From the NCBI GenBank assembly GCA_012523785.1, contig JAAYTH010000047.1, positions 1 to 50,624 on the forward strand: a DNA stretch of 50,624 nt, given 5' to 3'. Both the position numbers and the translations under genes were made by a program. The notes below the pieces were generated by a model. It was not told where the DNA came from. It did not search any database and saw only the letters and a program-made list of their open reading frames with translations. The DNA is from Bacillota bacterium. GTDB lineage: Bacteria > Bacillota > DTU030. Shown piece by piece: positions 4,373 through 25,904 of the stretch (position 1 is the stretch's first letter; each line of letters begins with the position of its first letter).

Positions 4373-5389
4373 ATGCTGGCCCTGGACCAAGGGTTGCAAG
4401 AACTACTCATAACGGTAAATTCATTGTTGCGGGACCGGACTCAGAATTATCCCCGCCGGGATGCAATCAGGCGATATCTCCGGGAAAAAATAGGGACATT
4501 GCAGAAACGGGCCCCCCTTAAGATAGATGCTTTACGGGCCTTGGCCGATGGCCGCCCCCTGATAGGGGTGGATGGCTCTGTACATTCCTATGGGACTGTA
4601 TTTCCCCATATAATTTATTGTTTTCGGGCCTTGGCTTCGGCTTCAACCTTATCTGTGGAAAAGGGTATCTCCCGGGTGGACTTATTTTACCCTGAAATGG
4701 CAGACCATCGCCGGGAAATTGAGGAAATAATTTCCCAGGCTGCCGCAGGCGGGGAGGAATTAGCCCCCGAAACGGCCGCAGCCCGGGCGGTGCGGCAAAG
4801 GCTGGCTGTTTTAGAAGTACAGGTGGCTATGGAAGCAGTAAATAAGTACCAACCCTTTGCGGTTTTATTTGATGGTGGTTTTCTCCGTTATGGCGGCCTG
4901 GCCCCGGCCCAATGGCAGGAATACCGGGAATTATCCCTGGCCAAGGATGTGGTGAGCATTGGTATCATTGAAGAGATTGGGACCTTTGATTTGGCCCGGA
5001 AAGTTTCAGCTGGCTTTCCAGAAGCATCTCCTTTTAGCTGTGACCGGGAACTCCTTTTTGGTATCTTAAAAAAGGGGGAATGGCTGGCGGTAAAAGAGGA
5101 TCTGGAGTTTAAAAAGACCTATTATACCTGTTTTGCCCGGCCCGGCTATTATCCTGGCGCGGTGGCTTATGATTTTTTTCAGGAGCAAACCCGGCGGGCA
5201 GCGGAATTCGTCCCTCTCCTTTTTGGTCTCACCCCCCAAGGGGGGCGGGGAATTCCCCAGTGGCTTGATCAGGTAGATGCAGCAGTGCGGATTACCAGGG
5301 GTGAAATGGAACTTTTACTGGCCTCCGGTTTAGACCGGGAACTACGAGAACGGTTATTTGTGTCACAGCGGGAAAGAAGAACTCTGTAA
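4373..5389 (+). CDS. nurA: NurA-like 5'-3' nuclease
   Basis: 338 aa. Two NurA-type acidic motifs are present: PLIGVDGSVHSYG and AVLFDGGFLRYG. It sits immediately upstream (18-nt gap, with GGGAGGA before the next ATG) of a HerA-type ATPase, which is the canonical partner arrangement. Confidence 0.65.
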   Translation: MLALDQGLQELLITVNSLLRDRTQNYPRRDAIRRYLREKIGTLQKRAPLKIDALRALADGRPLIGVDGSVHSYGTVFPHIIYCFRALASASTLSVEKGISRVDLFYPEMADHRREIEEIISQAAAGGEELAPETAAARAVRQRLAVLEVQVAMEAVNKYQPFAVLFDGGFLRYGGLAPAQWQEYRELSLAKDVVSIGIIEEIGTFDLARKVSAGFPEASPFSCDRELLFGILKKGEWLAVKEDLEFKKTYYTCFARPGYYPGAVAYDFFQEQTRRAAEFVPLLFGLTPQGGRGIPQWLDQVDAAVRITRGEMELLLASGLDRELRERLFVSQRERRTL

Positions 5390-5406
5390 TTTAGGGAGGA
5401 TAATCA

Positions 5407-7275
5407 ATGCAGATTGTTGGGCACACCACACAACAGGTAGTTTATGCCGCCTCACGGCGGCGGCCCTTTCGTATCAATGAGCTCCTCTTGATAGAAGATA
5501 GGATCCACAGTAATAGTAATCCCCTGGGGGAGGTGGTGGAAACCCAGTCTTTTAATAGGTATATTCCTTTGGCCACGGAACATAGCGACTTAGTTGATCG
5601 CCAGGTGATGGAAAATTTGGCTCAATTAGGTTACGATATTGGGGCCGATACCATTCATTTGGCCAGAATTAGAATTTTGGCCGAACTTGCATCCCCCGTC
5701 TCTGTTGGCATAGCCGTACGGGTACCTACTTTTGCTGAGATTAGAGATTTTCTCATACCCCGGGATCCCGCCACAGGACTAGTGTTGGGGGTTATTAGGG
5801 GTACGGAAGAACTTACCGTTGGATTACCCGCCCAGCTATCTAGAGTGGCGCTGCTGTACCAAAAGGATAGCGGAATTATGCCCCAGAAGGGGATCCCCTA
5901 CATAATGGATCACTGGACTTGGCCTGAATACCCCCATATCGGTATTTTTGGTGGTTCTGGATCGGGTAAATCCTTTGCCTTGCGGGTTTTGTTAGAAGAA
6001 TTAATGCGACAACAGCTGCCGGGGCTTATCCTAGATCCTCATTTTGAACTGTCTTTTACCGAACCCTTTCCCGATTTGCCTGCATCTTACCGGGAGGATT
6101 TTACCCGCCGTTCTATAGTGCTTATGGCCGGGCGGGATGTGGGGATTCTTTTTGAGGAGTTGAATGCTGCCGATTTGATCAATCTCCTGCAGGCGGCGGG
6201 GGAGGTAACGGAAAATATGAATAACGCCATCCAGACCTTACACCGACGCCGGGATTCCTTTGTTAGTTTCAGCACTAGAATACGGGATTTGACCCGGGGG
6301 TTGGAAGAAGAACAGGATCTAAAAAGAAAACTCCGGGAAGATGATGGCGATGGTTTCCGGGAAAAACAGGAAATAAGGCGTATTTTAGGCTTAGTGGAAA
6401 AATATAAGGATCGAGTCGGGCACGTCAGTACCCTCCGGGCCATTTCCCGCCGCTTGAACCGCCTGCAAACGGAACGGATTTTTACCGGTGGCATTGAACC
6501 CATCCGGGAGGCTATTATGAATAGGCGTTTGGTAGTGGTTCAGGGGCCCATATGGTTTCTGCAGGTATTGGGGGCCTATGTGATTCGCAAATTTTATCGG
6601 GAACGGCGCCAATATCAGGATGCCGAGCAGACGGGGGGAGAGGCGCCGAAGTTCCCTCCTTTTATAGTAGCCACCGATGAAGCCCATAATTTTGCCCCTC
6701 GCTCACCAGAAATACCGGCGCCGGCCCGCTCAATCCTACGTACCATTGCCCAGGAGGGGCGAAAATATGGGGTGTTTTTAATCTTGGCTACCCAGCGCCC
6801 CGCCCTCTTGGAAGATACTATAACAGCCCAGTTGAATACTAAACTTATTTTCCGCACTATCCGCTCCTCTGATCTGGAGGTAATTCGCGAAGAGACAGAT
6901 TTGGGTCCGGAGGAAGTCAGAAGACTCCCCTACCTGGGCTCGGGAAATGCCTTTGTTTCTTCGGCGGCTGTGGGGCGGACCATTGCTGTTCGTATCCGGG
7001 TGGCAAAGACTGTCAGCCCCCATAGCCGGCATCCCTTTTTGGAGTTAAAGGAGGATTTTATTCCCCCGGAAGAAGAGCTGGGGGAGGCACTTTTGACCTA
7101 CCTCCCTTTAGGAGATTTTAACTTTGATGTTCATCTAGGTACCTTGCAGCAGGAGTTAAAGCGGCGGATTACAATAGAAGAAATAACCTGCTGTCTAGAA
7201 GACCTGGTAGGGGAGGGGATAGTCGAGAAGAAGGAGATGGTGTTGGGGGTGGAATACAGGCGGCGGGAGGATTGA
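5407..7275 (+). CDS. herA: HerA-like (FtsK/HerA superfamily) hexameric ATPase/translocase
   Basis: 622 aa. Walker A is GIFGGSGSGKSFALRVL, Walker B is PPFIVATDEAHNFAP, and the HerA/FtsK hallmark VFLILATQRPALL is present. Confidence 0.85.
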   Translation: MQIVGHTTQQVVYAASRRRPFRINELLLIEDRIHSNSNPLGEVVETQSFNRYIPLATEHSDLVDRQVMENLAQLGYDIGADTIHLARIRILAELASPVSVGIAVRVPTFAEIRDFLIPRDPATGLVLGVIRGTEELTVGLPAQLSRVALLYQKDSGIMPQKGIPYIMDHWTWPEYPHIGIFGGSGSGKSFALRVLLEELMRQQLPGLILDPHFELSFTEPFPDLPASYREDFTRRSIVLMAGRDVGILFEELNAADLINLLQAAGEVTENMNNAIQTLHRRRDSFVSFSTRIRDLTRGLEEEQDLKRKLREDDGDGFREKQEIRRILGLVEKYKDRVGHVSTLRAISRRLNRLQTERIFTGGIEPIREAIMNRRLVVVQGPIWFLQVLGAYVIRKFYRERRQYQDAEQTGGEAPKFPPFIVATDEAHNFAPRSPEIPAPARSILRTIAQEGRKYGVFLILATQRPALLEDTITAQLNTKLIFRTIRSSDLEVIREETDLGPEEVRRLPYLGSGNAFVSSAAVGRTIAVRIRVAKTVSPHSRHPFLELKEDFIPPEEELGEALLTYLPLGDFNFDVHLGTLQQELKRRITIEEITCCLEDLVGEGIVEKKEMVLGVEYRRRED

Positions 7276-7633
7276 TTAGATGTTTGCTTTATGCCGTCCC
7301 GATTGAAAACATCTTTATTTAAAGAAACAGTAACTACTCAACCGCCCGCGTAAGGCATATCTTGTTATCTTTCTTTATATACCCGCAGACTATCTAAATT
7401 GTTATCCTGCGCGTCCAGCCTGTCCAGAGTGAAACAAAGGAAGTGTAGCGGAGGGAGGGCAATGTTCAAAAGAACCTTCCAGCCTAATGCCAAGATCCTC
7501 TGCTCCGCTCCGGGTGACATTGCACGTTGCTGCTGACTAATGACTATTTAACTTTAGCGGCTGTTGTCTAATCTTCACAAAAAAACAATAAAAAGGCTGG
7601 CAACACCGAATATTCATTGGGAGGTGTACCTGG

Positions 7634-8623
7634 ATGAGATTGCTGTTTTTAACTGATACCCACCACCGGGGGACCTCGCCCCAGAACCGGTTGGATAATT
7701 TTCCCGCTAGCCAAAAGGAAAAGCTACAGGAAGTTGTCGCCTTGGTTGAAAAACATAAGGTTGATTTTGTACTCCACGGGGGAGACTTTTGGGATAATCC
7801 CTTTCCCGCCCTCAATGTCTGTGGGGAGATATTAGAAATATATCGTGCTATAAGTGTTCCCATCTATGCCATCGCCGGAAACCACGACCTCTATGGGCAC
7901 AACCTAAACACCCTCCATCGGACTATGCTGGGCTTTATGGCCCGCCTGGGATTAGTGCAACTTCTAAAACCCGGGGTGCCGGTATATTTGAAAAAGGAGG
8001 GCCTGGGGTTACAGCTTACGGGACAATCATATCATTATGATATGGACCGGAGGGATCCGGCTTTGGACTACTGTGTTCGCAAAGAAAAGTGTGATCTTGC
8101 CATCCATATGGTTCATGGTTTGCTGGCGGACCGTTCCCTGGGCAATATCATCCGGCATACAGTTGTTGATAGGATTTTAACAACAGAGGCGGACCTAACT
8201 CTGGCGGGACATTATCACCTGGGCTTTCCCCCTGTAGAAGTGGATGATCGCTACTTTCTTAACCCCGGTGCTCTAGTCCGGGTGAATAACCATCCCTCCG
8301 AAATATCCCGCCGGCCGGCGGTAATTCTTATTGATTTATCCGGTGGAGCTATAAACTATCAGCTGCTCCACCTACAATCTGCCCTTCCCGGCAAGCTTGT
8401 ATTGGATCGGGAACAAGTCGAGCTTAAAATGCAACGGGAGGAACGGCTGGCTGATTTTGTCCGGGGGGTAAAGGCAGCTGGTGAATACTATGGCCTTGAC
8501 TTAGGGGAAATGGTGGCCACGATTGCTGCCAAGGAGACTTTATCCCCGGCCGTCCGGGAGGAAGCCCTGCGACGCCTGGCCTTGGCCCAGGAAGATTTCC
8601 AGACTGGGGGAGCGCGAGCATGA
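7634..8623 (+). CDS. Mre11/SbcD-like metallophosphoesterase (DNA repair exonuclease)
   Basis: 329 aa. The calcineurin-type phosphoesterase motifs occur in order: LFLTDTHHRG, LHGGDFWD, IAGNHDLYGH, IHMVHG, LAGHYHLG. An RBS (GGGAGGTG) is present. The stop overlaps the next start (ATGA at 8620-8623). Confidence 0.85.
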   Translation: MRLLFLTDTHHRGTSPQNRLDNFPASQKEKLQEVVALVEKHKVDFVLHGGDFWDNPFPALNVCGEILEIYRAISVPIYAIAGNHDLYGHNLNTLHRTMLGFMARLGLVQLLKPGVPVYLKKEGLGLQLTGQSYHYDMDRRDPALDYCVRKEKCDLAIHMVHGLLADRSLGNIIRHTVVDRILTTEADLTLAGHYHLGFPPVEVDDRYFLNPGALVRVNNHPSEISRRPAVILIDLSGGAINYQLLHLQSALPGKLVLDREQVELKMQREERLADFVRGVKAAGEYYGLDLGEMVATIAAKETLSPAVREEALRRLALAQEDFQTGGARA

Positions 8624-9933
8624 AAAAACTTCAGCGACTGACCATTGAAAACTTCCAGTCCCATGAATTCACCCAAATTGATTTTTCCCCCGGATTCAAT
8701 GTCATCGTCGGCCAATCGGACCAAGGGAAATCGGCCCTAATTCGAGCCCTGAAGTGGCTTATTTATAATGAGCCCCGGGGTGTTGATTTTATCCGCGTTG
8801 GGGCAACAAGGAGTAGTGTTACCATTCTTTTAACAGATGGCACCCAAATAACGCGGGAACGGACCCCATCCCGAAATCGCTATTATCTTTTAATACCGGG
8901 GCAGGAGGAAAATATCTTTGAAGGGTTCGGATCCCGAGTTCCCCAGGAGATACAAGATGCTCTGGGGATGGGAAAAGTAAAATTGGACGAAGACCTGGAA
9001 AGGATGTTGAATTTAGGCGAACAGCTGGAGGCACCCTTTCTTCTAGCGGAAACTGGTTCTGTAAAGGCCAAGGCCATCGGCCGTCTGTACGGGGTGCATA
9101 TCATTGATGCTGCCCTACGAGAAACAGTGCGGGATATGAGCCGGGCCCAGCAGGAGGAAAAACGCCTCGAAGATCGCCTCCGGCAAGTATCCGGGGATCT
9201 GGATGATTACTCTGACCTTCCCAATTTGGCACAAAAGGTGCAATATTTAAGGCAAAAATTGACGGAACTCAAGGTACTAACGGGACGGCTGGATACCTGC
9301 CGGGGACTTAAACAGAGGAAGGAAGAATTAGACAGTTATATTTTGCGGGCTGAGATAACCATCAAGGGATTGGTGGGGCTGCCAAAATGTGAGGAGTTAA
9401 TAAAAAAGATCGCCTTACTCCGGTCCCGCCATAGTGCCGCTAGGGAATATCGCCGGGAATTAAAGCAGGCCCGGGAAAAGGTCCTGCAGGCAGAAAAAGT
9501 ATTGCAGGCTACCCAAGGTTTAAAAAGGGCGGAAGAGTGGCAGCTGGCGGCCCAAAATTGCCGCCGTATGGGAACAGAACTTGCTAATCTCTACCGGGAA
9601 AATAGAAGGATAGAAGGCCATATCAATAGGGCCCAGGAGATATTGCAGCGGACAAAGGGGATAGAACAAGCTGTAAGGCATTTGGAGCTATACCAGGAAA
9701 AGAGGAAAGAAAGGTCTGTTTTAGAAAAATATCGACAGGAGTTTAGAACTGCCTTTCAACGGGGCAAAGGTGCCGAAGAAGCAATTTTGAATGCAGAAAA
9801 AGCAATTCGTCAATATGGGGATGAATATGGGACTCTGCTGGAGGGGTTGGGTAAATGTCCCCTTTGCTTTAGCGATATAACCCCAGAGACTATTAAAGGG
9901 ATTTTGAGTGAGTATACCGGGGAGGGTAGTTAA
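8620..9933 (+). CDS. Rad50/SbcC-like ATPase, piece 1 of 3: N-terminal ATPase lobe, ascending coiled coil and CxxC zinc hook
   Basis: 437 aa. The N-terminus LTIENFQSHEFTQIDFSPGFNVIVGQSDQGKSALIRAL has an SMC/Rad50-type Walker A. About 250 aa of heptad-rich, charge-rich sequence follow. The protein ends 21 residues after GKCPLCFSDI, a Rad50-hook-type CPxC motif. Confidence 0.75.
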   Translation: MKKLQRLTIENFQSHEFTQIDFSPGFNVIVGQSDQGKSALIRALKWLIYNEPRGVDFIRVGATRSSVTILLTDGTQITRERTPSRNRYYLLIPGQEENIFEGFGSRVPQEIQDALGMGKVKLDEDLERMLNLGEQLEAPFLLAETGSVKAKAIGRLYGVHIIDAALRETVRDMSRAQQEEKRLEDRLRQVSGDLDDYSDLPNLAQKVQYLRQKLTELKVLTGRLDTCRGLKQRKEELDSYILRAEITIKGLVGLPKCEELIKKIALLRSRHSAAREYRRELKQAREKVLQAEKVLQATQGLKRAEEWQLAAQNCRRMGTELANLYRENRRIEGHINRAQEILQRTKGIEQAVRHLELYQEKRKERSVLEKYRQEFRTAFQRGKGAEEAILNAEKAIRQYGDEYGTLLEGLGKCPLCFSDITPETIKGILSEYTGEGS

Positions 9934-10200
9934 TTGGGCTATGAAGAACAACTAGATCAACTTAAAAGGGGCCTCCAACAGGCTCTGCGCCTACGGGCCG
10001 ATGCCGAGACAAAACACAGCTTTTATTTGGAACAACGGGAAAGGATTTTACAAAAGATCAAAGAATTAGGGGTGGAGCCGGAGGAGCTGGACAAGGAAAT
10101 TAGCCGTTTGCAAAGGGAAATGGACCGGCTGTTAAAGGAGGCCGAAAAACTTATTCCTTGGGATTTACTTAAACAGCAGGAAGGTCAGGGGCGAGGGTGA
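9934..10200 (+). CDS. Rad50/SbcC-like ATPase, piece 2 of 3: 88-aa coiled-coil protein
   Basis: TTG start directly after the TAA of piece 1, in the same reading frame. GGGGAGGG lies 7 nt upstream. The sequence is entirely coiled-coil-like (EEQLDQLKRGLQQALRLRADAETKHSFYLEQRERILQKIKELG...). Confidence 0.5.
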   Translation: MGYEEQLDQLKRGLQQALRLRADAETKHSFYLEQRERILQKIKELGVEPEELDKEISRLQREMDRLLKEAEKLIPWDLLKQQEGQGRG

Positions 10201-10207
10201 TAAATAA

Positions 10208-10867
10208 ATGGCAAACTTACTTCAATTACAAAATGCTTTAGTGGATCTAGAAGCCCTTTACCACCAACGGCAGGGGCAGCGGGATCAGCTAGTCAGGGAA
10301 AGAAAAAGGCTACAGCAACAATTGGAGGAGATCATCCTAAAACGTGATTTATTGGATGAGGTACGGATCCTGTTTCAGATGACCTCTGAACATGCCCGGG
10401 AACAGGCACGGCAAACCATCGAATCTATGGTAACCCGGGCCCTCCAATATGTTTTTGGAGCTGACTTAGAGTTTAAAATCCGTATCGAGGAATCCCGGGG
10501 ACGGCCGGAGGCTGAGTTTTATGTGGCCTCAACCTATGGGGGTGAAGATGTTGTGGAGAACCGACCTCAGGATGCCCGGGGGGGTGGAGTGGTAGATGTG
10601 ATTTCCTTGGCCCTACGCCTGGTTCTTCTCCAGAGTACCCGCCCCCTCCTAGAGGGCCCGCTGCTTTTAGATGAACCAGCTAAGCATGTCTCCGATGAGT
10701 TTGCCTTCAATGTGGCGGAATTTTTGCGTGAGCTAGCCCAGGTCTTTGACCGGCAGGTGATTATGGTAACCCACAATCATCAGTTGGCCGGTGTGGCTGA
10801 CAATGCTTTTCGGGTGGAGATGGGGGAAGGAAAAAGTAGGGTTAATCAAGTGGGGGAAATTTTATAG
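10208..10867 (+). CDS. Rad50/SbcC-like ATPase, piece 3 of 3: descending coiled coil and C-terminal ATPase lobe
   Basis: 219 aa with its own RBS (GAGGGTGA) and ATG. The N-terminal 70 aa are coiled coil. These are followed by a signature-motif-like region ARGGGVVDVISLALRLVL, Walker B/D-loop PLLLDEPAKHVS, and a His-switch VMVTHNHQL. Confidence 0.7.
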   Translation: MANLLQLQNALVDLEALYHQRQGQRDQLVRERKRLQQQLEEIILKRDLLDEVRILFQMTSEHAREQARQTIESMVTRALQYVFGADLEFKIRIEESRGRPEAEFYVASTYGGEDVVENRPQDARGGGVVDVISLALRLVLLQSTRPLLEGPLLLDEPAKHVSDEFAFNVAEFLRELAQVFDRQVIMVTHNHQLAGVADNAFRVEMGEGKSRVNQVGEIL

Positions 10868-10988
10868 TGGGAAGGGTTTTCTCGGTGGGCATGTTCTAAG
10901 GTGTGTATAAAAGAAGGATGTCATATAATAGCTAATGGCTGGGGTGTGTTATTGTTATTGTAGTTAAATTCATTTAGGGGTTGATCCT

Positions 10989-13901
10989 GTGTACCATTGG
11001 GAGCAGGAAGGGCTATTTGCCCCGGCTGGTAAACAGCTATTTTTCTGGGGCAGTGGAAGAGAAATGAAGGATTACCTCCGGCAATTTTTAAAAGAAATGC
11101 AGGGGATGGGTCTGGAGCCGGATGAGATATTACTATTGTCACCCTACCGGGAAACAAAGAATGGGCTTAATTATCTTCTTCAGGAAGTATTTGGTGGCCG
11201 GGTAGCCAGACCCCACCTGGCCACCCTTCAGGGATTCTGTTTGGAGTTTTTAAATAGGGAAGGGCACCGCATCGGGTTGGAGGACCGGCCGGAGGTAATT
11301 AGGGGTTGGCAGGAATTTCTCATCCTGAAGAATCTGCTCCCCGGGCTAGTCCCCCAAGGTTATGATCCAACCTTGTGGGAAGAAAATGGACTTGTAGGTG
11401 AGATCCTGAGTTTTTTCAACCACCTTTGGGGACAAGGTATTAACCCAGTGGAATTCCGGCAAAGGGCACATAATTTTTCCGGGCCCCAACTCCTTGATTT
11501 ATCCATTGCTTATTCTAAATATGCCGATTTTTGCCGGCAGAGGGGATACCTCCCCTTGGCGGCCATAGCGCCTCTATCCTTCCAGCTTTTACAAGAACAT
11601 TCCTTCTTGCTGAAAAAATGCCGGGAGGGTAGACGGCTACTCATCGCTACTGATCTGGATCAACTAAAACCAGTTCAACTGCAAATAGTGGAGAGTCTTT
11701 TCGCTGTTTTTCCCTACTCCTTGGGCCTGGCTTTTAAAGGTTCTGGCTTAAGCAAAAAATTAAAGGCCGGGAAATCTGTCCAAGTGATAATGGGGGAAGA
11801 ATTAAAGCGGGAAAAAAAGATACAAGGATACAGTAACGGGGAGATGGAAAACTGGGGTGTGGCCCAGAAGATTGGCCAACTACTGGCAGAGGGGAAATAT
11901 AATCCTGGGGAAATTGCAGTTTTTCTTGGTGACACCTCCCGGGGGCAGCCGCTGATGAAGATTTTGGCCGCCATGGGCATTCCTTGTTATACTAAATTTA
12001 TCGGAGATACACCCTTGGAGCCGGTGTTGAGTTTTTTATCTGATTACCTAGAGGCCTTAATGGAACCGGACAACAATGAGGGGCAGATGAAATGGTTGTC
12101 TTCGCCGCTACTAGGTCTGGATGGTTTATGGTTGCGGCGGGCCTTCTATCGGGCCCAGGAACAGGACCGGCAATTGTTAGATGTGTTGGCTGATACGGGG
12201 AAAAAACCGGTGAAATTTTTCCTTTACCATCTTGAGGGGATTAGGACAGCTTGCATAAGCCCCCTGGAAATAGTGGAAGAATTATATGAAGAATATAATT
12301 TATTTCAGCCCCATGTGGATGGCCCGGGAGAGGGAAAAGGACAGGAGGTCCCGGAACCTTCAAGCAAGCGGCAGGATTTTCTTATGCTGGCGCGGGAATG
12401 TGAAGACCTAAACCACCATTTTAGGGGTAAAGATGCAAGCCTCCAGGAATTTCTGCAGCAACTAGAAGGGGCCTGGCCTTATTTAAAACGGGAAATAAGG
12501 GTTGCTGTGGGCCCAGGGGAAGGGGTTATGTTTGCTCTTATTCGGGATGCCCCTAAGTACATGCCTGGGGCTGCCTTTCTACCCGCAATGGCTGCTAATA
12601 TCTATCCACCCCAACGGATTCCAGCTCCCCTCCTGGGCAAAGGGGAATGGAATGAGCTCCGGGATATTTTTCCCCACTTGGAATTGCCTCCGGATTTTGA
12701 CCCCCGCCGTTTTCATACCGAGCATCGAGTTGCTTTAGAGCGGGGGGCTGCTGCCGCTGATCAGGCTTGGATCAGTTGGGCCCGCTCCTATCCTGAAATA
12801 GAAAAAACCGGGCCCTCGGATCTCTTGAGTGAGAATGTAGAAAAAAGGTATAAAACAGAGTTTAAGGAGGAATACCATTTTACCTGGCCCGATCCCGCTC
12901 CGGGAGCAACTACCAGGGAACGTTTAAGTGATTTTTACTCCCAGCAAATTAGCCGTGGGGGGGCAAAGCCATTGCCCAGGGCCCAGGAGGAGCCGGGCCA
13001 ATTTGGTATTTACCTTAAGAACCTTACTCCTCCCATCGAGGGAAAGAGGATAGCCGCCCAGATCGACTATTTCACCCCTTCCGCTATTAGGACTTATTTG
13101 GCCTGTCCCCGGCGTTATTATTATCAAAACATCCTGAAACTAAAAACTCCCCCCTACCCCCGCGCCCAGTTGGGTTTATTTTTGCACCGGGTCCTGGAGG
13201 TTTTTCACCGCCGTTTTCCCTCCCTGTTTGGTGTTGATGAAGAAATCGCAGGGTCCTATATGGAACAGGTTTTCAAGGAAATATGGCTAGACATGAGGTC
13301 ATCCTTTGGAAAGGGACTTCTATCAGATTTTTACCGGCAGGAAGCCAAATCCATCTGCCGGGCTTACTTGGCCCGGGAATTGCCCAATTGGGAACCGGGG
13401 CGATGGGCCAGGGTGGAAGAAACTATTGATTTCACCTTTAGGGGCAACCGACTACGGGGCCGCTGGGATAGGTTGGATATACTACCCGGTGGTGGTTGGG
13501 AAATAATTGACTACAAGACGGGAAGGGATCAGACAGAAGGGCAGCGTAAAAGGGAATTCCTACCCCGCGAAGGCGAAGGACCGGTGGACATGCAGTTGAT
13601 TATCTATTACCTGGGGGCTAGGAAGAAGGGAATATCCCCGGAGTACTTTACCTGGTATCGACTTTCAGGACTCATAGGCCGAAGTAAGGTAAAACGCAGT
13701 TTGTTCTTTGGGGAGGGGAAGGGTGGTATCACGCCAAGCGATTTGGAAAAGGCCAAGGGGATCCTTACCGAAATATTAGGGGAGATGCGGACAAATGATT
13801 ACCCCCCTAGACCCCGGAATGATCGAATCTGCAAGTATTGTGCCTTCCGATTTCCTTGTCCCGGCTCTCAACCTCTGGAGGAAGGGGAAATAAATGAATA
13901 G
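10989..13901 (+). CDS. addB: AddB-like subunit: degenerate helicase-like N-terminal region plus C-terminal PD-(D/E)XK nuclease with an Fe-S cluster
   Basis: 970 aa. I see no intact Walker A in the N-terminal part. The C-terminus has the AddB/RecB-family pattern: first Cys in YLACPRRYYYQ, nuclease core GRWDRLDIL...WEIIDYKTGR, and a terminal CKYCAFRFPC triad. It overlaps the following helicase gene by 8 nt. Confidence 0.75.
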   Translation: MYHWEQEGLFAPAGKQLFFWGSGREMKDYLRQFLKEMQGMGLEPDEILLLSPYRETKNGLNYLLQEVFGGRVARPHLATLQGFCLEFLNREGHRIGLEDRPEVIRGWQEFLILKNLLPGLVPQGYDPTLWEENGLVGEILSFFNHLWGQGINPVEFRQRAHNFSGPQLLDLSIAYSKYADFCRQRGYLPLAAIAPLSFQLLQEHSFLLKKCREGRRLLIATDLDQLKPVQLQIVESLFAVFPYSLGLAFKGSGLSKKLKAGKSVQVIMGEELKREKKIQGYSNGEMENWGVAQKIGQLLAEGKYNPGEIAVFLGDTSRGQPLMKILAAMGIPCYTKFIGDTPLEPVLSFLSDYLEALMEPDNNEGQMKWLSSPLLGLDGLWLRRAFYRAQEQDRQLLDVLADTGKKPVKFFLYHLEGIRTACISPLEIVEELYEEYNLFQPHVDGPGEGKGQEVPEPSSKRQDFLMLARECEDLNHHFRGKDASLQEFLQQLEGAWPYLKREIRVAVGPGEGVMFALIRDAPKYMPGAAFLPAMAANIYPPQRIPAPLLGKGEWNELRDIFPHLELPPDFDPRRFHTEHRVALERGAAAADQAWISWARSYPEIEKTGPSDLLSENVEKRYKTEFKEEYHFTWPDPAPGATTRERLSDFYSQQISRGGAKPLPRAQEEPGQFGIYLKNLTPPIEGKRIAAQIDYFTPSAIRTYLACPRRYYYQNILKLKTPPYPRAQLGLFLHRVLEVFHRRFPSLFGVDEEIAGSYMEQVFKEIWLDMRSSFGKGLLSDFYRQEAKSICRAYLARELPNWEPGRWARVEETIDFTFRGNRLRGRWDRLDILPGGGWEIIDYKTGRDQTEGQRKREFLPREGEGPVDMQLIIYYLGARKKGISPEYFTWYRLSGLIGRSKVKRSLFFGEGKGGITPSDLEKAKGILTEILGEMRTNDYPPRPRNDRICKYCAFRFPCPGSQPLEEGEINE

Positions 13902-16341
13902 ATATCTAAAGGGGTTAAATCCTGAACAGCGGCAGGCCGTTACCTATCCTTTGGATAAACCCCTTAAGGTGTTGGCCGGGGCCGGAACCGGCAAGACCAG
14001 GGTACTGACCACCAGATATATACATATCCTGGCCCAGGGCGGCAACTGGGCCCCGGAAAACATTTTAGCCTTGACCTTTACCAATAAGGCGGCGGCGGAA
14101 ATGAAAGAACGCATTGTTGATTCTTGCCGGAGGATGAGGATTGCCACTGGCCCTCTGTTTTTGCAAGAGAGCTGGATAGGCACCTTTCATTCCTGCTGCC
14201 ATCGATTTCTGCGGGAACATGCCCTAGGGGCAGGATTAGACCCGGAATTTACTGTTTATGATGAGGCCCGTTCTTGGCTCCTCTATCGGCGGGTGGTGGA
14301 TGAATTTTTATCCGCTAAGGGGGCAGTGCCGGAGGGCTTTGTCCTTACTGATCTCAATTTCTACGTAAAGGATGTCTATTTCCTCATCAATCGCCTGAAG
14401 GACAGCCTTATCTATCCAGATGATTACCAGCAGATGGTCAGAGAAGAAAATAATAAATATTATGACCGCTGGGGGGAGCTCTTAATGGGTTTAGGTGATA
14501 TGGAGCTACACCCGGCAACCCGGAAGGTTTTAATGGAGAGGGGCGAGGAGGCCCGGGAACAATCGGCTTGGGAGGGGGATCTCATCCAGGTCACCAATTT
14601 TTTGTTTTCTGCCTATCAAGAGGCACTGGCAGCAGCAAGGGCCCTTGATTTTGCTGATCTCATCTATTATACCTACCGGCTTTTACGGGACAATGTGGCC
14701 CTGGGAGAGGAGTGCCGACACCGATTTGCCTATATTTTGGTGGATGAATTTCAGGATACCAATAGGGCCCAATTTGCCCTTTTGCGCCTTTTGGCCCGGG
14801 ATGAAAAAATGTCTAATGTAACGGTAGTGGGGGATGAAAGACAGGCCATATATGGTTGGCGGAATGCCCGGATAGAAAATGTGAGGGAATTTGCGGCCCG
14901 GGAGTGGGGGGGTGAAGAGATAAGATTGCACACAAATTACCGTTCCTATCAGCAAATACTAGATCTAGCCCAGTTTAGTATGGAAAAATCCCCCCATTTG
15001 CTGCAGGATAATTCGCCCCTCCGGGCCCAGCGGGGAGTTGCCCCTGGGCCCCGCATCAGTTTGGCACTGGCCCAGGATAGGGGAGAGGAAGGAAACATAA
15101 TTGCCGCCGCCATTGGTGAACTCCTAAAGCAGGGGATGAGGGCTGAAGATATAGTAATTCTTCTGCGCAGCCCCCGCTGGGCCCAACCCTACGAGGGTGC
15201 CCTGCGCCTAAGGGGTATCCCCTTTCAGACCGTCGGCGGTGTGGGTTTTTATGATCGGGAAGAAATTAAAGATCTTTTGGCTTACCTGCGGGTTATTACC
15301 AACCCCTACGACGACCTGGCCTTGGTACGGGCCCTCATGGCCCCGCCTTGTTTTTGCAGTGATGCCGATTTGGCACAGATATGCCAATTGCAAAAACGGC
15401 GGGAGGGGATTGGAGGGGAAGAGGTCCATTTATATGATATCCTGCGCGGAGTGTTAGTGGAACCTGAAATTCCCCCGGCGGTAAGAAAGAAGGTGGAAGT
15501 CTTTTTGGCGCTGGGGGAAGGACTTATTGAATTACAAGATAAGATGTCACTGACAGATTTTTTGAACCAGATTCTACAAAGGACCGCCTATCTTAACTAT
15601 GTTTATGCTAACCCACCAGATGAAGTTCGCCGTCGAATTGGCAATATCAAGAAACTCTTTTCCCTCGCTTCCCAAATAGATCCGGGAACAGCTGCTGAAT
15701 TTATCCGTTATGCGGAATTCTTTTCGGAAAATGATCTACGGGAAGGCGAAGAAGCGGCCGGGTATAGGGATGCTGTCACCATAATGAGTGTCCACCAGGC
15801 CAAGGGTTTGGAGTTTCCCTATGTTTTTTTACCCAATCTCACGGATACTAATTTCCCCGTCCGGGCCCCTTACCCCAATTTAGATTACAGTGAAGATCTG
15901 GGATTAATTATAAAAAAGGACCGGTTGGGAAGGGATATGGCAAAATTTGCCCCCCATAATTATGATAAAGAAAATTATCGAGATATTTATAACCACTTTG
16001 GGATTATTAGTTACAAAGATAGACAGCGGGAAGAACAGCTACAGGAGGAGCGCCGTCTTTTTTATGTGGCCCTGACCAGGGCCCAAGAGGGGCTGTATTT
16101 GACTTGTCCTAAACCTTTCCCAAAAAGATCCCGGGGGCCCCATTTCTTCCGGGAAATCTGGGAAGGATATGAGCCGGCGGAAAAAATTGTGGGGCAGAAG
16201 GTTCAAGGTCCGGCGGGAGATGAAGACCCTTTGCTAGACTGGAAGCCGGGAGAGCTGCAGCAATACCATGAGGTTTTGTCAAAGTGGCTAGAGCTAGGAA
16301 AAAGGATTTTTACCGCTTCTGACAAATTTTTGCCAAAATAG
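13894..16341 (+). CDS. UvrD/PcrA/AddA-type superfamily 1 helicase with no recognisable C-terminal nuclease domain
   Basis: 815 aa. Motifs: LNPEQRQAV, Walker A AGAGTGKTRVLT, TFTNKAAAEM, ILVDEFQDTN, VGDERQAIYGWRNA, TNYRS, VTIMSVHQAKGLEFPYVF, LFYVALTRAQEGLYL. The protein ends about 90 aa after the last helicase motif. Confidence 0.9.
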   Translation: MNRYLKGLNPEQRQAVTYPLDKPLKVLAGAGTGKTRVLTTRYIHILAQGGNWAPENILALTFTNKAAAEMKERIVDSCRRMRIATGPLFLQESWIGTFHSCCHRFLREHALGAGLDPEFTVYDEARSWLLYRRVVDEFLSAKGAVPEGFVLTDLNFYVKDVYFLINRLKDSLIYPDDYQQMVREENNKYYDRWGELLMGLGDMELHPATRKVLMERGEEAREQSAWEGDLIQVTNFLFSAYQEALAAARALDFADLIYYTYRLLRDNVALGEECRHRFAYILVDEFQDTNRAQFALLRLLARDEKMSNVTVVGDERQAIYGWRNARIENVREFAAREWGGEEIRLHTNYRSYQQILDLAQFSMEKSPHLLQDNSPLRAQRGVAPGPRISLALAQDRGEEGNIIAAAIGELLKQGMRAEDIVILLRSPRWAQPYEGALRLRGIPFQTVGGVGFYDREEIKDLLAYLRVITNPYDDLALVRALMAPPCFCSDADLAQICQLQKRREGIGGEEVHLYDILRGVLVEPEIPPAVRKKVEVFLALGEGLIELQDKMSLTDFLNQILQRTAYLNYVYANPPDEVRRRIGNIKKLFSLASQIDPGTAAEFIRYAEFFSENDLREGEEAAGYRDAVTIMSVHQAKGLEFPYVFLPNLTDTNFPVRAPYPNLDYSEDLGLIIKKDRLGRDMAKFAPHNYDKENYRDIYNHFGIISYKDRQREEQLQEERRLFYVALTRAQEGLYLTCPKPFPKRSRGPHFFREIWEGYEPAEKIVGQKVQGPAGDEDPLLDWKPGELQQYHEVLSKWLELGKRIFTASDKFLPK

Positions 16342-16384
16342 TATTTGTATGGTATTATTATGGTGATGTTAAAATAAAAACAAA

Positions 16385-16490
16385 TAATCTCCGAGCCTGA
16401 TTAGCCTAAAGGTGTAAAGCCCAGGGTACCAGGCCGCTAGGGTACACCGGAAACGGTGCTGCCTCCCGGAATTATGGAAAGGAGATGGCG
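16385..16490 (+). promoter_or_regulatory. Candidate molybdenum/tungsten cofactor (Moco RNA motif) riboswitch aptamer
   Basis: As I recall them, the conserved Moco-motif blocks occur in the expected order. They are CTCCGAGCC (16389-16397), CCTAAAGG (16405-16412), GCCTCCC (16461-16467) and GGAAAGGAG (16476-16484). CTCC and GGAG can close a P1 stem. There is a 5-bp hairpin capped by a GAAA tetraloop (CACCG-GAAA-CGGTG, 16445-16458). Tetraloop-receptor-like halves are present: CCTAA(A)G and TATGG (16473-16477). No covariance-model search was run. Confidence 0.55.
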
Positions 16491-16504
16491 ATATAGAAGT
16501 TTTT

Positions 16505-16535
16505 AAAACGTCTTCTCCAAGACGTTTTTTCTTTT
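16505..16535 (+). terminator. Intrinsic terminator forming the expression platform of the leader
   Basis: AAAACGTCTT (16505-16514), loop CTCC, AAGACGTTTT (16519-16528), then TTCTTTT. An alternative pairing exists between GGAGATGGCG (16481-16490, including the 3' half of the proposed P1) and CGTCTTCTCC (16509-18). That pairing has 8 Watson-Crick pairs plus 1 G-U out of 10 and would act as an antiterminator. Confidence 0.75.
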
Positions 16536-16620
16536 GTCTGTCTATTTTTCCTTGCCAGCCCTCTGTCCCTCGCCTTCACCCGATGGAAGAATAATTATCA
16601 CTAGTTTGGGGTGTTTTGTT

Positions 16621-18132: not shown

Positions 18133-18241
18133 CAAACAATAGTAACTGCTTAGTGGCACCCACTGATGTCATTCTGGGCAAAGCGAAGGATCAGGGCCAT
18201 GGTTATTAATCAGACAGCAGAAGGGCCAGGGGAAGGAAGTT

Positions 18242-19846: not shown

Positions 19847-19851
19847 TCAAA

Positions 19852-20505
19852 ATGAATGGGCCCATATTGATCTACCTCAAGGATATGCTTCACGGCATTG
19901 CTAGCGGCCTATTAATACCAACCATAATCATCCTTATCTGCTTTTTGGCCTTGTCAGTGGTGGAATTAGGCGGTTTGCTAGTAGAAATCATAATGGAAAG
20001 ACGTCGGGAAAAAACAAATGTACCCCAATTAATAAGTGCCCTGCCGGGAAAAGGTGCTGTGGAGATAATGGCTAAAATAGAACAAAGCTCCCTTTTTCTT
20101 CGGCAGAAGGAAGTTATTGCCGAGATAATCCGCCATAGGGAATTGCCATCTGCTTCTTTGCGCGCCCTGGCTCGACGCCTTCTATCGGCAGAGGAAAGCC
20201 ATTTTACCAGCATAACTGATAGAACTGATCTAGTGGCCCGCTTGGCCCCTATGTTGGGCCTAATGGGCACCCTTATACCCCTAGGACCGGGCATAATTGC
20301 CCTGGGTCAAGGTGATACCCAAACCCTGGCCAGTTCCCTGCTCATTGCCTTTGATACCACTGTAGCAGGCCTGGCCGCCGCTGGCGTTGCCTACGGCATA
20401 TCCCGGCTGCGGAAAAGATGGTATGAGGAGCAGATCAATACATTGGCAGCACTGTTGGAAAGTTTGCTGGAGGTGTTTGAAAATGGACGGGGGCTTGCGG
20501 AATAG
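19852..20505 (+). CDS. MotA/TolQ/ExbB-family proton-channel protein
   Basis: 217 aa. There is an N-terminal TM segment (LLIPTIIILICFLALSVVELGGLLV). The C-terminal two-TM channel core is LAPMLGLMGTLIPLGPGIIALGQGD...LLIAFDTTVAGLAAAGVAYGISRL, typical of MotA_ExbB. The gap to the preceding gene is 5 nt. Confidence 0.85.
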   Translation: MNGPILIYLKDMLHGIASGLLIPTIIILICFLALSVVELGGLLVEIIMERRREKTNVPQLISALPGKGAVEIMAKIEQSSLFLRQKEVIAEIIRHRELPSASLRALARRLLSAEESHFTSITDRTDLVARLAPMLGLMGTLIPLGPGIIALGQGDTQTLASSLLIAFDTTVAGLAAAGVAYGISRLRKRWYEEQINTLAALLESLLEVFENGRGLAE

Positions 20506-20815: not shown

Positions 20816-20894
20816 TTTTTCCCCGCCGCTAAAGTACATATTCGGATGGTGTTGTGTAAACCCAACAATATAAAAAAGGGGGAGAACAGGGCCC

Positions 20895-25865: not shown

Positions 25866-25904
25866 ATGCAAAAGGCAAGCAGTAGGGTTTTATGCTAAAG
25901 GATG

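What the first reader, a model, noticed from the sequence alone, without database searches (positions are those of the whole stretch)
4373..16341. Three DNA-end-resection machineries in one 12-kb array: NurA-HerA, Mre11/Rad50-like and an AddAB-like helicase-nuclease
What the sequence shows: all eight genes are on one strand. They are arranged as nurA-herA (18-nt gap), a 358-nt gap, four tightly packed genes for the Mre11-like protein and the three Rad50-like pieces (ATGA overlap, 0-nt and 7-nt gaps), a 121-nt gap, then the addB-like gene and helicase gene (8-nt overlap).

Established knowledge:
- herA-mre11-rad50-nurA is the signature DSB-resection operon of thermophilic archaea.
- addB-addA-sbcD-sbcC are adjacent in Bacillus subtilis.
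- Bacterial NurA/HerA pairs are known (for example in Deinococcus) but, as far as I recall, are generally not linked to Mre11/Rad50 genes.

This locus merges the archaeal-type quartet with the Firmicute AddAB module. That suggests either one co-regulated resection hub or a functional interplay between HerA-NurA and SbcCD-like proteins in a bacterium.

HerA-family ATPases also occur in anti-phage systems, so a defence role for the nurA-herA pair cannot be excluded from sequence alone. I found no LexA (Cheo) box GAAC-N4-GTTC in the gaps.
Basis: partly seen in the sequence, partly recalled or inferred. Interest (0 to 1): 0.7.

Follow-up and report, generated by a model that had tools for sequence, protein, structure and literature searches.

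The report
HerA-NurA plus three-piece Rad50 operon
This bacterium carries a conserved six-gene DNA-break-processing cluster (NurA, HerA, an Mre11-like nuclease and a Rad50-like ATPase naturally built from three separate proteins) that many Firmicutes share and sometimes place right behind recA; the neighbouring AddAB-like genes are a recent, here truncated, neighbour and not part of it.

Summary
In detail: eight same-strand genes lie at the stated coordinates, and profile searches support every domain assignment.

(1) nurA-herA-mre11-rad50 is a real, conserved unit. 28 of 80 reference loci, which form one HerA clade of Bacillota, have the same order.

(2) The three "Rad50 pieces" are not decay. 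All 29 tabulated loci keep three ORFs with intact ATPase motifs and an invariant CPxC. The 88-aa middle protein is always stand-alone. The N-terminal piece carries a variable number of 47-residue repeats, while the other two pieces keep a constant length.

(3) In Thermoactinomycetaceae and Tepidanaerobacter the same four-gene Mre11/Rad50 module directly follows recA(-recX). There nurA-herA, where located, lies in the core abrB-metS region. This argues for recombinational repair and against phage defence.

(4) The AddAB-like pair is adjacent in only one relative (86% HerA identity). It is absent at 83% identity and in 19 other adequately covered loci. The window's helicase has lost its about 250-aa nuclease domain. 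"Three machineries in one hub" is therefore not supported.

Verdict: a new variant of a known kind, an uncharacterised bacterial HerA-NurA/Mre11/split-Rad50 system.

The parts
4373..5389 (+). nurA: NurA-family nuclease (338 aa)
   Evidence: Pfam PF09376 NurA, E 3.7e-14, matching positions 3-254 of 254. The motifs gVDGS, mDG, DRelLfG and RGiPlwLD are conserved across 78 orthologues. It is paired with herA in 80 of 80 loci.
5407..7275 (+). herA: HerA/FtsK-superfamily ring ATPase-translocase (622 aa)
   Evidence: Pfam DUF87/HerA central domain, plus NCBIfam and PADLOC HerA models. Invariant Walker A GIFGGSGSGKS, Walker B TDEAH and QEGRKYG. Best PDB sequence matches are HerA chains 9x1l, 8xau and 4d2i. 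Orthologues at about 50% identity occur across Bacillota.
7276..7633 (.). Non-conserved 358-nt spacer between herA and the mre11-like gene
   Evidence: It is an insertion relative to L081 (gap about 80 nt) and is unrelated to the 550-nt gap of L082. Most relatives have gaps of 9-35 nt. There is no Rfam hit, no Cheo box and no convincing terminator.
7634..8623 (+). mre11-like: Mre11/SbcD-family nuclease (329 aa)
   Evidence: All five phosphoesterase motifs are conserved: TDxH, GGDfFD, GNHD, IHmVHG and GHnHlG. The AF2 model has pLDDT 88.9. All top 50 Foldseek PDB hits are Mre11 (best 9bi5_B, E 1.4e-15, TM 0.62). The stop overlaps the R50N start (ATGA).
8620..9933 (+). R50N: N-lobe of a Rad50-type ABC ATPase (Walker A, Q-loop) plus a helical arm, ending just after CPLC (437 aa)
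   Evidence: Pfam AAA_23 and NCBIfam Rad50 N-terminus. Foldseek of the AF2 model gives the P. furiosus Rad50 N-lobe 1f2u_A as top hit, at 29-31% identity. All top 120 homologues are 388-541 aa and none is full length.
9238..9801 (+). Four tandem 47-residue repeats within R50N (residues 207-394)
   Evidence: Profile autocorrelation peaks at lags 47 and 94. HHalign of residues 200-298 against 301-410 gives probability 98% and E 7e-14. The stacked units and the AF2 helix breaks fall on the unit boundaries. Family length classes differ by one unit.
9856..9867 (+). CPLC motif (C413-P414-L415-C416), a candidate zinc hook
   Evidence: Read directly from the DNA. C413, P414 and C416 are invariant in 56 homologues. 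17 of 56 homologues match Pfam Rad50_zn_hook, best E 1.5e-4; the window copy itself does not reach E 0.05.
9934..10200 (+). R50m: small helical subunit (88 aa), TTG start preceded by GGGAGGG
   Evidence: It is a separate ORF in all 29 tabulated loci. In 1.84 billion representative proteins it has 102 clusters, nearly all 77-106 aa and none inside a long chain. The motifs GVxPExL and C-terminal IPWDLL are conserved.
10208..10867 (+). R50C: short helical stalk plus the C-lobe of the Rad50-type ATPase (219 aa)
   Evidence: Invariant ARGGGVVD (signature-like), LLLDEP (Walker B) and VTHN (H-loop). A family profile searched against the PDB gives M. jannaschii and P. furiosus Rad50 C-lobes at E 1.6e-10 and 2.3e-10, with SMC only at 3e-4.
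10989..13901 (+). AddB-like subunit: degenerate UvrD-like N-terminal domain plus a PD-(D/E)XK nuclease with a Cys4 cluster (970 aa). It is a lineage-specific neighbour, not part of the conserved unit.
   Evidence: Pfam PDDEXK_1, 115 bits. The sequence has no Walker A, and it has GRWDRLD...EIIDYK and C...CKYCAFRFPC. There is no PDB sequence hit. It is present only in the window and L081.
13894..16341 (+). Truncated AddA-like UvrD/PcrA-type helicase (815 aa) lacking the C-terminal nuclease domain
   Evidence: It aligns to residues 1-805 of the 1059-aa L081 orthologue, whose residues 806-1059 form a PD-(D/E)XK domain. No remnant lies downstream. NCBIfam addA_Gpos scores 268-276 bits against a cut-off of 708.

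Best explanation
Window 4373-10867 encodes a conserved six-gene DNA-end-processing system of Bacillota, made of two modules.

Module 1 is NurA (nuclease) plus HerA (ring translocase).

Module 2 is an Mre11-family nuclease plus a Rad50-family ABC ATPase built from three polypeptides:
- R50N: the ATPase N-lobe, an arm of 47-residue helical repeats, and a terminal CPxC.
- R50m: an 88-aa helical subunit.
- R50C: a short stalk plus the ATPase C-lobe.

Inferred mechanism:
- R50N and R50C reconstitute a Rad50-type head through a short coiled coil formed in trans. By my recollection of Hopfner et al. 2000, laboratory Rad50 head constructs made from separate N- and C-terminal fragments assemble this way.
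- Two such heads dimerise on ATP and clamp a DNA end together with the Mre11-like dimer.
- The repeat arms are tied together through zinc at CPxC.
- The Mre11-like nuclease cleans or nicks the end.
- HerA-NurA then carries out processive resection, producing 3' tails for RecA.

The downstream AddB-like and AddA-like pair is a separate two-subunit helicase-nuclease. It became adjacent only in this shallow lineage and is truncated here. It is not part of the conserved system.
For: Shown by the data:
- Domain identities.
- Intact catalytic motifs in all five enzymatic proteins.
- The same gene order in 28 of 80 reference loci plus L081, L082/L083 and L085. These loci form one HerA clade whose sub-clades follow taxonomy.
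- The three-ORF Rad50 is kept in all 29 tabulated loci, in various frames and with various stop codons. No full-length homologue appears among the top hits for R50N or R50m.
- The four-gene MR-like module lies immediately after recA-recX in Lihuaxuella and Paludifilum, and after recA in Tepidanaerobacter.
- Both modules co-occur in a genome when they are unlinked (Lihuaxuella L043 plus L084; T. permanentifrigoris L003 plus L087).
- In unlinked genomes nurA-herA sits in the core region holB-yabA-rsmI-abrB-[nurA-herA]-metG-tatD-rnmV-ksgA.
- The window's flanks are housekeeping genes.

Inferred: the order of action and the role in homologous recombination, by analogy with the archaeal HerA-NurA/Mre11-Rad50 system and D. 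radiodurans NurA-HerA (PMC9960219, PMC8708640).
Against: - There is no experimental or expression data.
- No LexA/Cheo box lies in the gaps.
- The window has a 358-nt non-conserved spacer between herA and mre11, so co-transcription is not assured here.
- The geometry of the split Rad50 is unresolved. R50N length varies by whole 47-aa units (371-710 aa), whereas R50m plus R50C stays at 292-330 aa (r = 0.09). A canonical antiparallel N/C coiled coil with an apical hook does not fit.
- The window's own CPLC does not reach Pfam's zinc-hook model.
- HerA-family and SMC-like ATPases also occur in defence systems, and weak PADLOC hits exist.
- Co-occurrence of the two modules in alkaliphilic Bacillaceae, Halanaerobiales and Tissierellia could not be tested.
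Confidence: 0.7

Rival explanations
1. The nurA-herA pair, or the whole six-gene cluster, is an anti-phage or anti-plasmid defence system. A HerA ring and a Rad50/SMC-like sensor would detect foreign DNA ends, and the nucleases would degrade them.
For: PADLOC gives domain-level hits of HerA to defence-type HerA models and to mad8. R50N and R50C hit LmuB, GajA, PtuA and mad3. NCBIfam anti-phage HerA models are hit at 43-53 bits. HerA-based defence systems are established (8xau and 8j4u are among the PDB hits).
Against: - All defence hits are far below family level and cover only the generic ATPase parts. NCBIfam cut-offs are 800-850 bits.
- The cluster has no effector or methyltransferase partner. 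MADS needs mad6-8 plus a methyltransferase.
- The contexts are core genome and stable over several orders: abrB-metS, recA-recX-rny, and ribonucleotide reductase or uppP flanks.
- The HerA tree follows taxonomy, which argues against patchy horizontal transfer.
- No mobile-element genes lie in the window.
Confidence: 0.08
2. One reading: all eight genes form one co-regulated resection hub in which HerA-NurA, the MR-like complex and an AddAB-like enzyme work together.
For: All eight genes are on the same strand. Only 121 nt separate R50C from the AddB-like gene. The same eight-gene order occurs in L081. By general knowledge, B. subtilis has addB-addA-sbcD-sbcC adjacent, a precedent for AddAB/SbcCD linkage.
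Against: - The adjacency is absent in L082/L083 (83% HerA identity), in L085, and in 18 other loci with at least 3 kb downstream of R50C.
- The window's AddA-like gene has lost its nuclease domain, and a Moco-riboswitch operon abuts it.
- The pair is not an AddA/AddB equivalog.
Confidence: 0.07
3. The system is housekeeping but serves a DNA transaction other than DSB resection. Examples are replication-fork processing, chromosome or spore-DNA handling in these mostly spore-forming lineages, or processing of incoming DNA.
For: HerA belongs to the FtsK/HerA pump superfamily. In unlinked genomes nurA-herA lies beside yabA, holB and abrB (replication and transition-state genes), and the MR-like module lies beside spoVS, rny and ymdB. 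By the literature summarised in PMC8708640 and PMC5448004, bacterial nurA/herA mutants have modest or unusual phenotypes.
Against: Direct fusion to recA(-recX) in two distant lineages points to recombination. Mre11 and Rad50 folds with intact nuclease and ATPase motifs are hallmarks of DNA-end processing.
Confidence: 0.12
4. The three Rad50-like ORFs are a decaying pseudogene (a nonsense mutation plus a frameshift) or a sequencing artefact.
For: In the window, R50N and R50m are in frame and separated by a single TAA, and R50C is frameshifted relative to them.
Against: - The same three ORFs occur in all 29 tabulated loci, with different frames, overlaps and stop codons.
- Each piece is 35-60% identical across classes, with invariant catalytic residues.
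- Shine-Dalgarno sequences precede the R50m and R50C starts.
- No unsplit homologue was found.
Confidence: 0.02

Closest known systems
Archaeal herA-mre11-rad50-nurA operon (Sulfolobus, Pyrococcus)
   Same: It has the same four protein families in one gene cluster: the NurA domain, the HerA ATPase, the Mre11 fold with five phosphoesterase motifs, and a Rad50-type ABC head that gives archaeal Rad50 as its best structural and profile matches. The presumed role is DSB end resection upstream of the recombinase.
   Different: - The gene order is nurA-herA-mre11-rad50 here.
- Sequence similarity to the archaeal proteins is only remote, far below the equivalog cut-offs.
- Rad50 is made of three polypeptides, with a 47-aa-repeat arm of variable copy number and a separate 88-aa subunit.
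- Mre11 is short (329 aa).
- The host is bacterial (Bacillota).
Deinococcus-Thermus NurA-HerA (D. radiodurans drNurA-HerA; Thermus nurA-hepA; Oceanithermus profundus nurA-hepA-sbcD-sbcC)
   Same: It is a bacterial nurA-herA gene pair in that order. In O. profundus, sbcD/sbcC homologues lie downstream (PMC5448004), so bacterial linkage has a published precedent. D. radiodurans NurA-HerA resects DNA ends in vitro (PMC9960219).
   Different: phmmer gives no detectable similarity of the window's NurA to any PDB NurA, and the D. radiodurans HerA is not among the PDB hits. This is therefore a separate Bacillota clade. No split Rad50, R50m subunit or recA linkage was reported for those systems in the papers I could read.
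Bacterial SbcCD (E. coli, B. subtilis) and T. maritima Mre11-Rad50
   Same: A nuclease gene directly precedes and overlaps the ATPase gene. The best PDB sequence hits of the Mre11-like protein are T. maritima Mre11/SbcD (2q8u, 3qg5). A CxxC motif follows the helical arm.
   Different: - SbcC/Rad50 is a single polypeptide of about 850-1050 aa, with an antiparallel N/C coiled coil and an apical hook. Here the ATPase is split in three, and the arm length varies independently of the other two subunits.
- The NCBIfam sbcd model is hit at only 30 bits against a cut-off of 78.
AddAB (B. subtilis) and AdnAB (mycobacteria) helicase-nucleases
   Same: In the full-length L081 form it is a two-subunit design. 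One subunit has a degenerate UvrD-like domain plus a PD-(D/E)XK nuclease with a Cys4 cluster. The other has an active UvrD-type motor plus a C-terminal PD-(D/E)XK nuclease.
   Different: - It is not an equivalog: addA_Gpos scores 276 against 708 bits, and addB models are hit at 32 bits or less.
- The motor is closer to PcrA/UvrD (264 bits) than to AddA (181) or AdnB (173).
- Both subunits are shorter (969 and 1059 aa).
- In the window the motor subunit lacks its nuclease.
HerA- or SMC-based defence systems (Sir2-HerA, DUF4297-HerA, Lamassu LmuB, Gabija GajA, MADS mad3/mad8)
   Same: They share ATPase folds. PADLOC models give E values of 1e-12 to 1e-21 over the ATPase cores.
   Different: The cluster has no Sir2, DUF4297, LmuA or methyltransferase effector partner. 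It has a core-genome context and vertical inheritance. The hits are restricted to generic motifs.

Membership tests
NurA nuclease family (PF09376) | Full-length match to the NurA domain profile above the curated threshold | tested here: met
   53.3 bits against a cut-off of 21, matching profile positions 3-254 of 254.
NurA nuclease family (PF09376) | Conserved acidic catalytic motifs (the D of motif I, and so on) | tested here: met
   gVDGS, lE, mDG and RGiPlwLD.vD are conserved across 78 orthologues. Mapping these onto the archaeal catalytic residues rests on my own knowledge and was not aligned explicitly.
NurA nuclease family (PF09376) | Gene pairing with a HerA ATPase | tested here: met
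   80 of 80 loci.
HerA helicase/translocase (FtsK-HerA superfamily) | HerA central ATPase domain with Walker A, Walker B and an arginine finger | tested here: met
   DUF87, 54.5 bits. GIFGGSGSGKS, TDEAH and QEGRKYG are invariant. The best PDB hits are HerA chains.
HerA helicase/translocase (FtsK-HerA superfamily) | Equivalog-level identity with archaeal DSB-repair HerA or with anti-phage HerA | tested here: not met
   NF040819 scores 61.5 against 970. NF042944 scores 52.7 against 850. This is a separate clade.
HerA helicase/translocase (FtsK-HerA superfamily) | Hexameric ring that binds a NurA dimer | not testable with these tools
   No multimer modelling or biochemistry was available.
Mre11/SbcD nuclease | Five calcineurin-type phosphoesterase motifs | tested here: met
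   TDxH, GGDfFD, GNHD, IHmVHG and GHnHlG are conserved.
Mre11/SbcD nuclease | Mre11 fold (nuclease plus capping region) as the best structural match | tested here: met
   AF2 pLDDT 88.9. All top 50 Foldseek PDB hits are Mre11, with E 1e-15 to 1e-12, TM about 0.6 and about 300 aligned columns.
Mre11/SbcD nuclease | C-terminal Rad50-binding helices | tested here: inconclusive
   Helices 260-284, 290-300 and 305-323 are predicted, but at pLDDT 50-77. Binding was not modelled.
Mre11/SbcD nuclease | Curated family thresholds (TIGR00619 sbcd; archaeal Mre11 equivalogs) | tested here: not met
   sbcd scores 29.9 against 77.65. The Mre11 models score 27 bits or less against 500-600.
Rad50/SbcC ABC ATPase | N-lobe with Walker A and Q-loop, and C-lobe with signature motif, Walker B, D-loop and H-loop | tested here: met
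   R50N has GQSDQGKS and QLExPFL. R50C has ARGGGVVD (a GGG variant of the SGG signature), LLLDEP and VTHN. Foldseek and profile searches put Rad50 first.
Rad50/SbcC ABC ATPase | Single polypeptide whose N- and C-terminal helices form one antiparallel coiled coil | tested here: not met
   There are three polypeptides in every genome examined. The R50N arm varies by 47-aa units, independently of R50m and R50C.
Rad50/SbcC ABC ATPase | CxxC zinc hook | tested here: inconclusive
   CPxC is invariant. 17 of 56 homologues match PF04423 weakly, and the window copy does not. The motif's position relative to the arm tip is unresolved.
Rad50/SbcC ABC ATPase | Adjacent, translationally coupled Mre11/SbcD gene | tested here: met
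   There is an ATGA overlap at 8620-8623. The same order occurs in all loci.
AddAB helicase-nuclease | AddA: UvrD-type motor plus a C-terminal RecB-type nuclease | tested here: not met
   The window protein ends at residue 815 with no nuclease. The orthologue in L081 has one.
AddAB helicase-nuclease | AddB: inactive helicase-like domain plus a PD-(D/E)XK nuclease with an Fe-S cluster | tested here: met
   Weak UvrD N-terminal domain without a Walker A. PDDEXK_1 at 115 bits. The Cys pattern is C...CxxCx5C. Fe-S binding is inferred from the Cys pattern.
AddAB helicase-nuclease | Equivalog-level similarity to AddA or AddB models | tested here: not met
   addA_Gpos scores 268-276 against 707.65. 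addB_alphas scores 27-32 against 486.5. There is no addB_Gpos hit.
MADS / Lamassu / HerA-effector defence systems | Presence of the system's mandatory partners (mad6-8 plus a methyltransferase; LmuA effector; Sir2 or DUF4297) | tested here: not met
   PADLOC gives only ATPase-core hits and finds no partner proteins among the eight genes. The MADS requirements are taken from bioRxiv 10.1101/2023.03.30.534895.

The most novel reading that the evidence does not exclude
The Bacillota Mre11/Rad50-like module represents a structurally new way of building a Rad50/SMC-type machine. The ABC head is assembled from two gene products. The arm is not an antiparallel N/C coiled coil. It is a modular rod of 47-residue repeats, with 3 to about 10 copies, belonging to one subunit and tied by a terminal CPxC, for example as a parallel R50N-R50N rod. 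An obligatory 88-aa third subunit completes the complex. Together with HerA-NurA it would form a widespread, recA-linked and so far unstudied bacterial counterpart of the archaeal resection machinery.
Probability: 0.4. Interest if true: 0.75.

Novelty: new variant of a known kind. Interest (0 to 1): 0.6.

Why it matters
**An open question becomes testable.** How HerA-NurA cooperates with Mre11-Rad50 is still unresolved in archaea, and those hosts are hard to manipulate. A conserved bacterial version exists in culturable aerobes such as Tumebacillus, Ammoniphilus and Thermoactinomycetaceae. In some lineages it is wired directly behind recA, which offers a tractable system for that question.

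**A natural dissection of Rad50.** The head halves, the arm and a small subunit are separate proteins, and the arm length changes in 47-residue steps. This gives a built-in experiment on what the coiled coil and the hook are needed for.

**Annotation.** These genes are currently labelled "metallophosphoesterase", "AAA family ATPase" or "hypothetical". The two small ORFs carry no Pfam family in the gene calls retrieved here and are easily mistaken for debris of a broken sbcC.

**Firmicute DSB repair.** It also suggests that resection in many Firmicutes is not limited to AddAB and RecJ.

Tried and rejected
- **Programmed readthrough or selenocysteine at the R50N/R50m in-frame stop.** Rejected. 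The in-frame arrangement occurs in about one third of loci, as chance predicts, and TAA, TAG and TGA are all used.
- **An apparent N+m fusion in L018.** This was an artefact of a tblastn HSP running through a stop codon.
- **R50m or the R50C N-terminus as diverged copies of the 47-aa repeat.** HHalign probabilities are 18% or less.
- **MADS membership, suggested by the mad3 and mad8 PADLOC hits.** Rejected, because the mandatory partners and the methyltransferase are missing.
- **A regulatory element or RNA in the 358-nt herA-mre11 gap.** There is no Rfam hit, no conservation with relatives, no Cheo box and no inverted repeat of note.
- **NurA against PDB sequences.** No hit.
- **AddB-like against PDB sequences.** No hit.
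- **Direct verification of the R50N arm geometry.** The model coordinates are not exposed, so the fold-back and parallel-dimer models could not be distinguished.
- **Literature.** Iyer 2004, Constantinesco 2004 and Cheng 2015 are not held. Later literature searches timed out, so the absence of prior reports rests on only three successful NurA/HerA-related searches.
- **Promoter and terminator scan.** Terminator-like sites were at shuffle level and promoter-like sites somewhat above it, but neither gave a decisive signal. The one exception is the riboswitch terminator at 16505-16528.

Full report
**1. Observation**

Profile searches support every assignment at domain level:
- NurA: PF09376, 53 bits, a full-length match.
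- HerA: DUF87 plus HerA models.
- A calcineurin-type phosphoesterase with weak SbcD/Mre11 hits.
- AAA_23/Rad50 N-terminus for the 437-aa ORF.
- The C-terminal part of SMC_N/RecN/Rad50 for the 219-aa ORF.
- PDDEXK_1 (115 bits) plus a degenerate UvrD N-domain for the 970-aa ORF.
- A PcrA/UvrD-type motor for the 815-aa ORF.

No Cheo box lies in the gaps. The flanks are housekeeping genes. Upstream is a class II ribonucleotide reductase with an intein. Downstream are SLH and molybdopterin-domain proteins, ECF transporter genes, and others. There are no mobile-element or defence genes.

**2. The first six genes are a conserved unit**

HerA has orthologues at about 50% identity across Bacillota. A scan of one genome per species returned 80 loci.

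- nurA-herA is paired in 80 of 80 loci.
- In 28 loci it is followed in the same order by the Mre11-like gene and the three Rad50-like ORFs. These loci come from Thermacetogeniaceae, Ammonifex, Syntrophaceticus, Syntrophomonadaceae, Desulfovirgula, Desulfotomaculum copahuensis, Thermosyntropha, Tumebacillus and Ammoniphilus.
- The complete genome of Desulfofarcimen acetoxidans shows the same array.
- In a neighbour-joining HerA tree, all MR-linked loci form one clade and all unlinked loci form the other. Sub-clades follow taxonomy. This indicates vertical inheritance and a single origin, or a single loss, of the linkage.

**3. The "three Rad50 pieces" are a conserved three-subunit architecture**

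All 29 tabulated loci have three ORFs, with different relative frames, overlaps and stop codons. This excludes a pseudogene or recoding.

*R50N.*
- It has Walker A (GQSDQGKS), a Q-loop, and an invariant CPxC about 21 aa from its C-terminus.
- All top 120 homologues are 388-541 aa.
- The AF2 N-lobe best matches the Rad50 N-lobes of P. furiosus, T. maritima and M. jannaschii.

*R50C.*
- It has ARGGGVVD, LLLDEP and VTHN.
- Its family profile hits archaeal Rad50 C-lobes at about 1e-10, against 3e-4 for SMC.

*R50m.*
- This 88-aa protein has its own conserved motifs, GVxPExL and a C-terminal IPWDLL.
- In 1.84 billion representative proteins it is always a stand-alone protein of about 77-106 aa.

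*Mre11-like.*
- It keeps all five phosphoesterase motifs.
- The model is confident (pLDDT 89), and all of its top 50 PDB matches are Mre11.

**4. An unexpected arm**

The helical part of R50N is a tandem array of 47-residue repeats.
- Autocorrelation peaks at lags 47 and 94.
- HHalign of residues 200-298 against 301-410 gives probability 98% and E 7e-14.
- There are four units, at residues 207-394.
- The AF2 helix breaks fall on the unit boundaries.

The family length classes of about 390, 437, 484 and 531 aa, and 710 aa in D. copahuensis, differ by whole units. R50m and R50C stay constant. R50N has SD 63 aa, R50m plus R50C has SD 8.6 aa, and r = 0.09.

A canonical antiparallel N/C Rad50 coiled coil formed in trans cannot accommodate this. 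I infer one of two models: a self-contained fold-back or zig-zag of R50N, or a parallel R50N-R50N rod tied by the terminal CPxC. The tools could not distinguish them, because no coordinates and no multimer modelling were available. 17 of 56 homologues match Pfam's Rad50 zinc-hook model weakly, and the window copy does not.

**5. Context elsewhere points to recombination, not defence**

In Lihuaxuella and Paludifilum (Thermoactinomycetaceae), the same four-gene MR-like module starts at the stop codon of recX, within cinA-recA-recX-[module]-rny-ymdB-spoVS. In Tepidanaerobacter syntrophicus it follows recA directly.

In Lihuaxuella, nurA-herA lies elsewhere (L043), so both modules co-occur when unlinked. 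In T. permanentifrigoris a PKS cluster separates them.

In the unlinked HerA clade, nurA-herA sits in the core region holB-yabA-rsmI-abrB-[nurA-herA]-metG-tatD-rnmV-ksgA.

The PADLOC hits are generic ATPase-core hits. MADS is excluded.

**6. The AddAB-like pair**

Adjacency to the six-gene unit occurs only in the window and in L081 (86% HerA identity). It is absent in L082/L083 (83% identity), in L085, and in 18 further loci with at least 3 kb downstream of R50C.

In L081 the motor subunit is 1059 aa with a C-terminal PD-(D/E)XK domain. The window protein matches only residues 1-805, and no remnant lies downstream. Immediately after the window gene comes a Moco riboswitch (16377-16500, 64.9 bits) with its terminator. 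This riboswitch heads an unrelated operon.

The pair has the AddAB/AdnAB architecture. The AddB-like subunit lacks a Walker A and has RecB-type nuclease motifs and a Cys4 pattern. It is nevertheless far below the AddA and AddB equivalog scores, and its motor is closer to PcrA/UvrD.

The "three machineries in one hub" reading is therefore not supported. A mis-assembly at the junction cannot be excluded.

**7. Prior knowledge**

[quoted passage not shown] Blesa et al. 2017 noted sbcD/sbcC homologues downstream of nurA-hepA in Oceanithermus profundus (PMC5448004). Bacterial linkage as such therefore has a precedent.

I found no description of the Bacillota cluster, the three-part Rad50, the 47-aa repeat arm or the recA linkage. 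Several key papers were not held, and later searches failed.

**8. Verdict**

The best explanation (confidence 0.7) is a conserved Bacillota DSB end-processing system, made of HerA-NurA plus an Mre11-like nuclease and a three-subunit Rad50-like ATPase, that feeds RecA. The AddAB-like genes are an incidental neighbour, truncated here.

Novelty: a new variant of a known kind. Interest: 0.6.

Noticed in passing
window 16377-16500 (+), terminator hairpin 16505-16528: A Moco (molybdenum/tungsten cofactor) riboswitch, RF01055 at 64.9 bits, lies directly after the truncated helicase gene. It heads the downstream cluster of SLH, Fn3_assoc and molybdopterin-oxidoreductase-domain proteins (16534-28046). 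An S-layer-anchored molybdoenzyme operon under Moco control is unusual.
   Followed up: partly
window 13894-16341, breakpoint about 16166-16341: The AddA-like helicase has lost its C-terminal PD-(D/E)XK nuclease domain of about 250 aa, compared with the 1059-aa orthologue in L081. DNA homology to L081 ends near 16166. This is either a real deletion or rearrangement, or a contig mis-join.
   Followed up: partly
window 533-3970 (-): The class II ribonucleotide reductase carries an intein with a LAGLIDADG homing-endonuclease domain. The intein is present in the 83%-identity relative L082 (1148 aa) but absent in the 86%-identity relative L081 (801 aa).
   Followed up: no
window 9238-9801 (R50N residues 207-394): There are four tandem 47-residue repeats. 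Copy number varies from 3 to about 10 between lineages. 5 of 56 homologues weakly hit a spectrin-like repeat Pfam model.
   Followed up: yes
L084 8001-11349; L086 8001-11373; L088 7004-10395: The Mre11-like/R50N/R50m/R50C module is inserted between recA(-recX) and rny in Thermoactinomycetaceae and Tepidanaerobacter. Its start overlaps or abuts the upstream gene.
   Followed up: yes
L038-L080 (for example L063 5993-17999): In alkaliphilic Bacillaceae, Thermoactinomycetaceae, Halanaerobiales and Tissierellia, nurA-herA is inserted between abrB and metG in the origin-proximal core region (holB, yabA, rsmI ... tatD, rnmV, ksgA).
   Followed up: yes
L089 7015-9700 (Acetivibrio cellulolyticus): The module has the mre11-like gene, R50N and R50m but no R50C within 8 kb. 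rimO-pgsA follow instead. R50C may be lost or relocated.
   Followed up: no
L003 and L087 (Tumebacillus permanentifrigoris, same contig): A polyketide synthase/P450 cluster of about 19 kb is inserted between herA and the MR-like module. The two are contiguous or nearly so in other Tumebacillus.
   Followed up: partly
L027, L040, L045: MAG contigs labelled Deltaproteobacteria and Candidatus Sumerlaeota carry Bacillota-type nurA-herA. L040 also has rsmI, metG and tatD neighbours. This suggests mis-binning or horizontal transfer.
   Followed up: no
window 16534-22274: Three paralogous genes encode Fn3_assoc plus CHB_HEX_C_1 domain proteins, two of them with SLH or copper-amine-oxidase N-terminal domains. 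A MotA/ExbB-like gene is interspersed among them.
   Followed up: no
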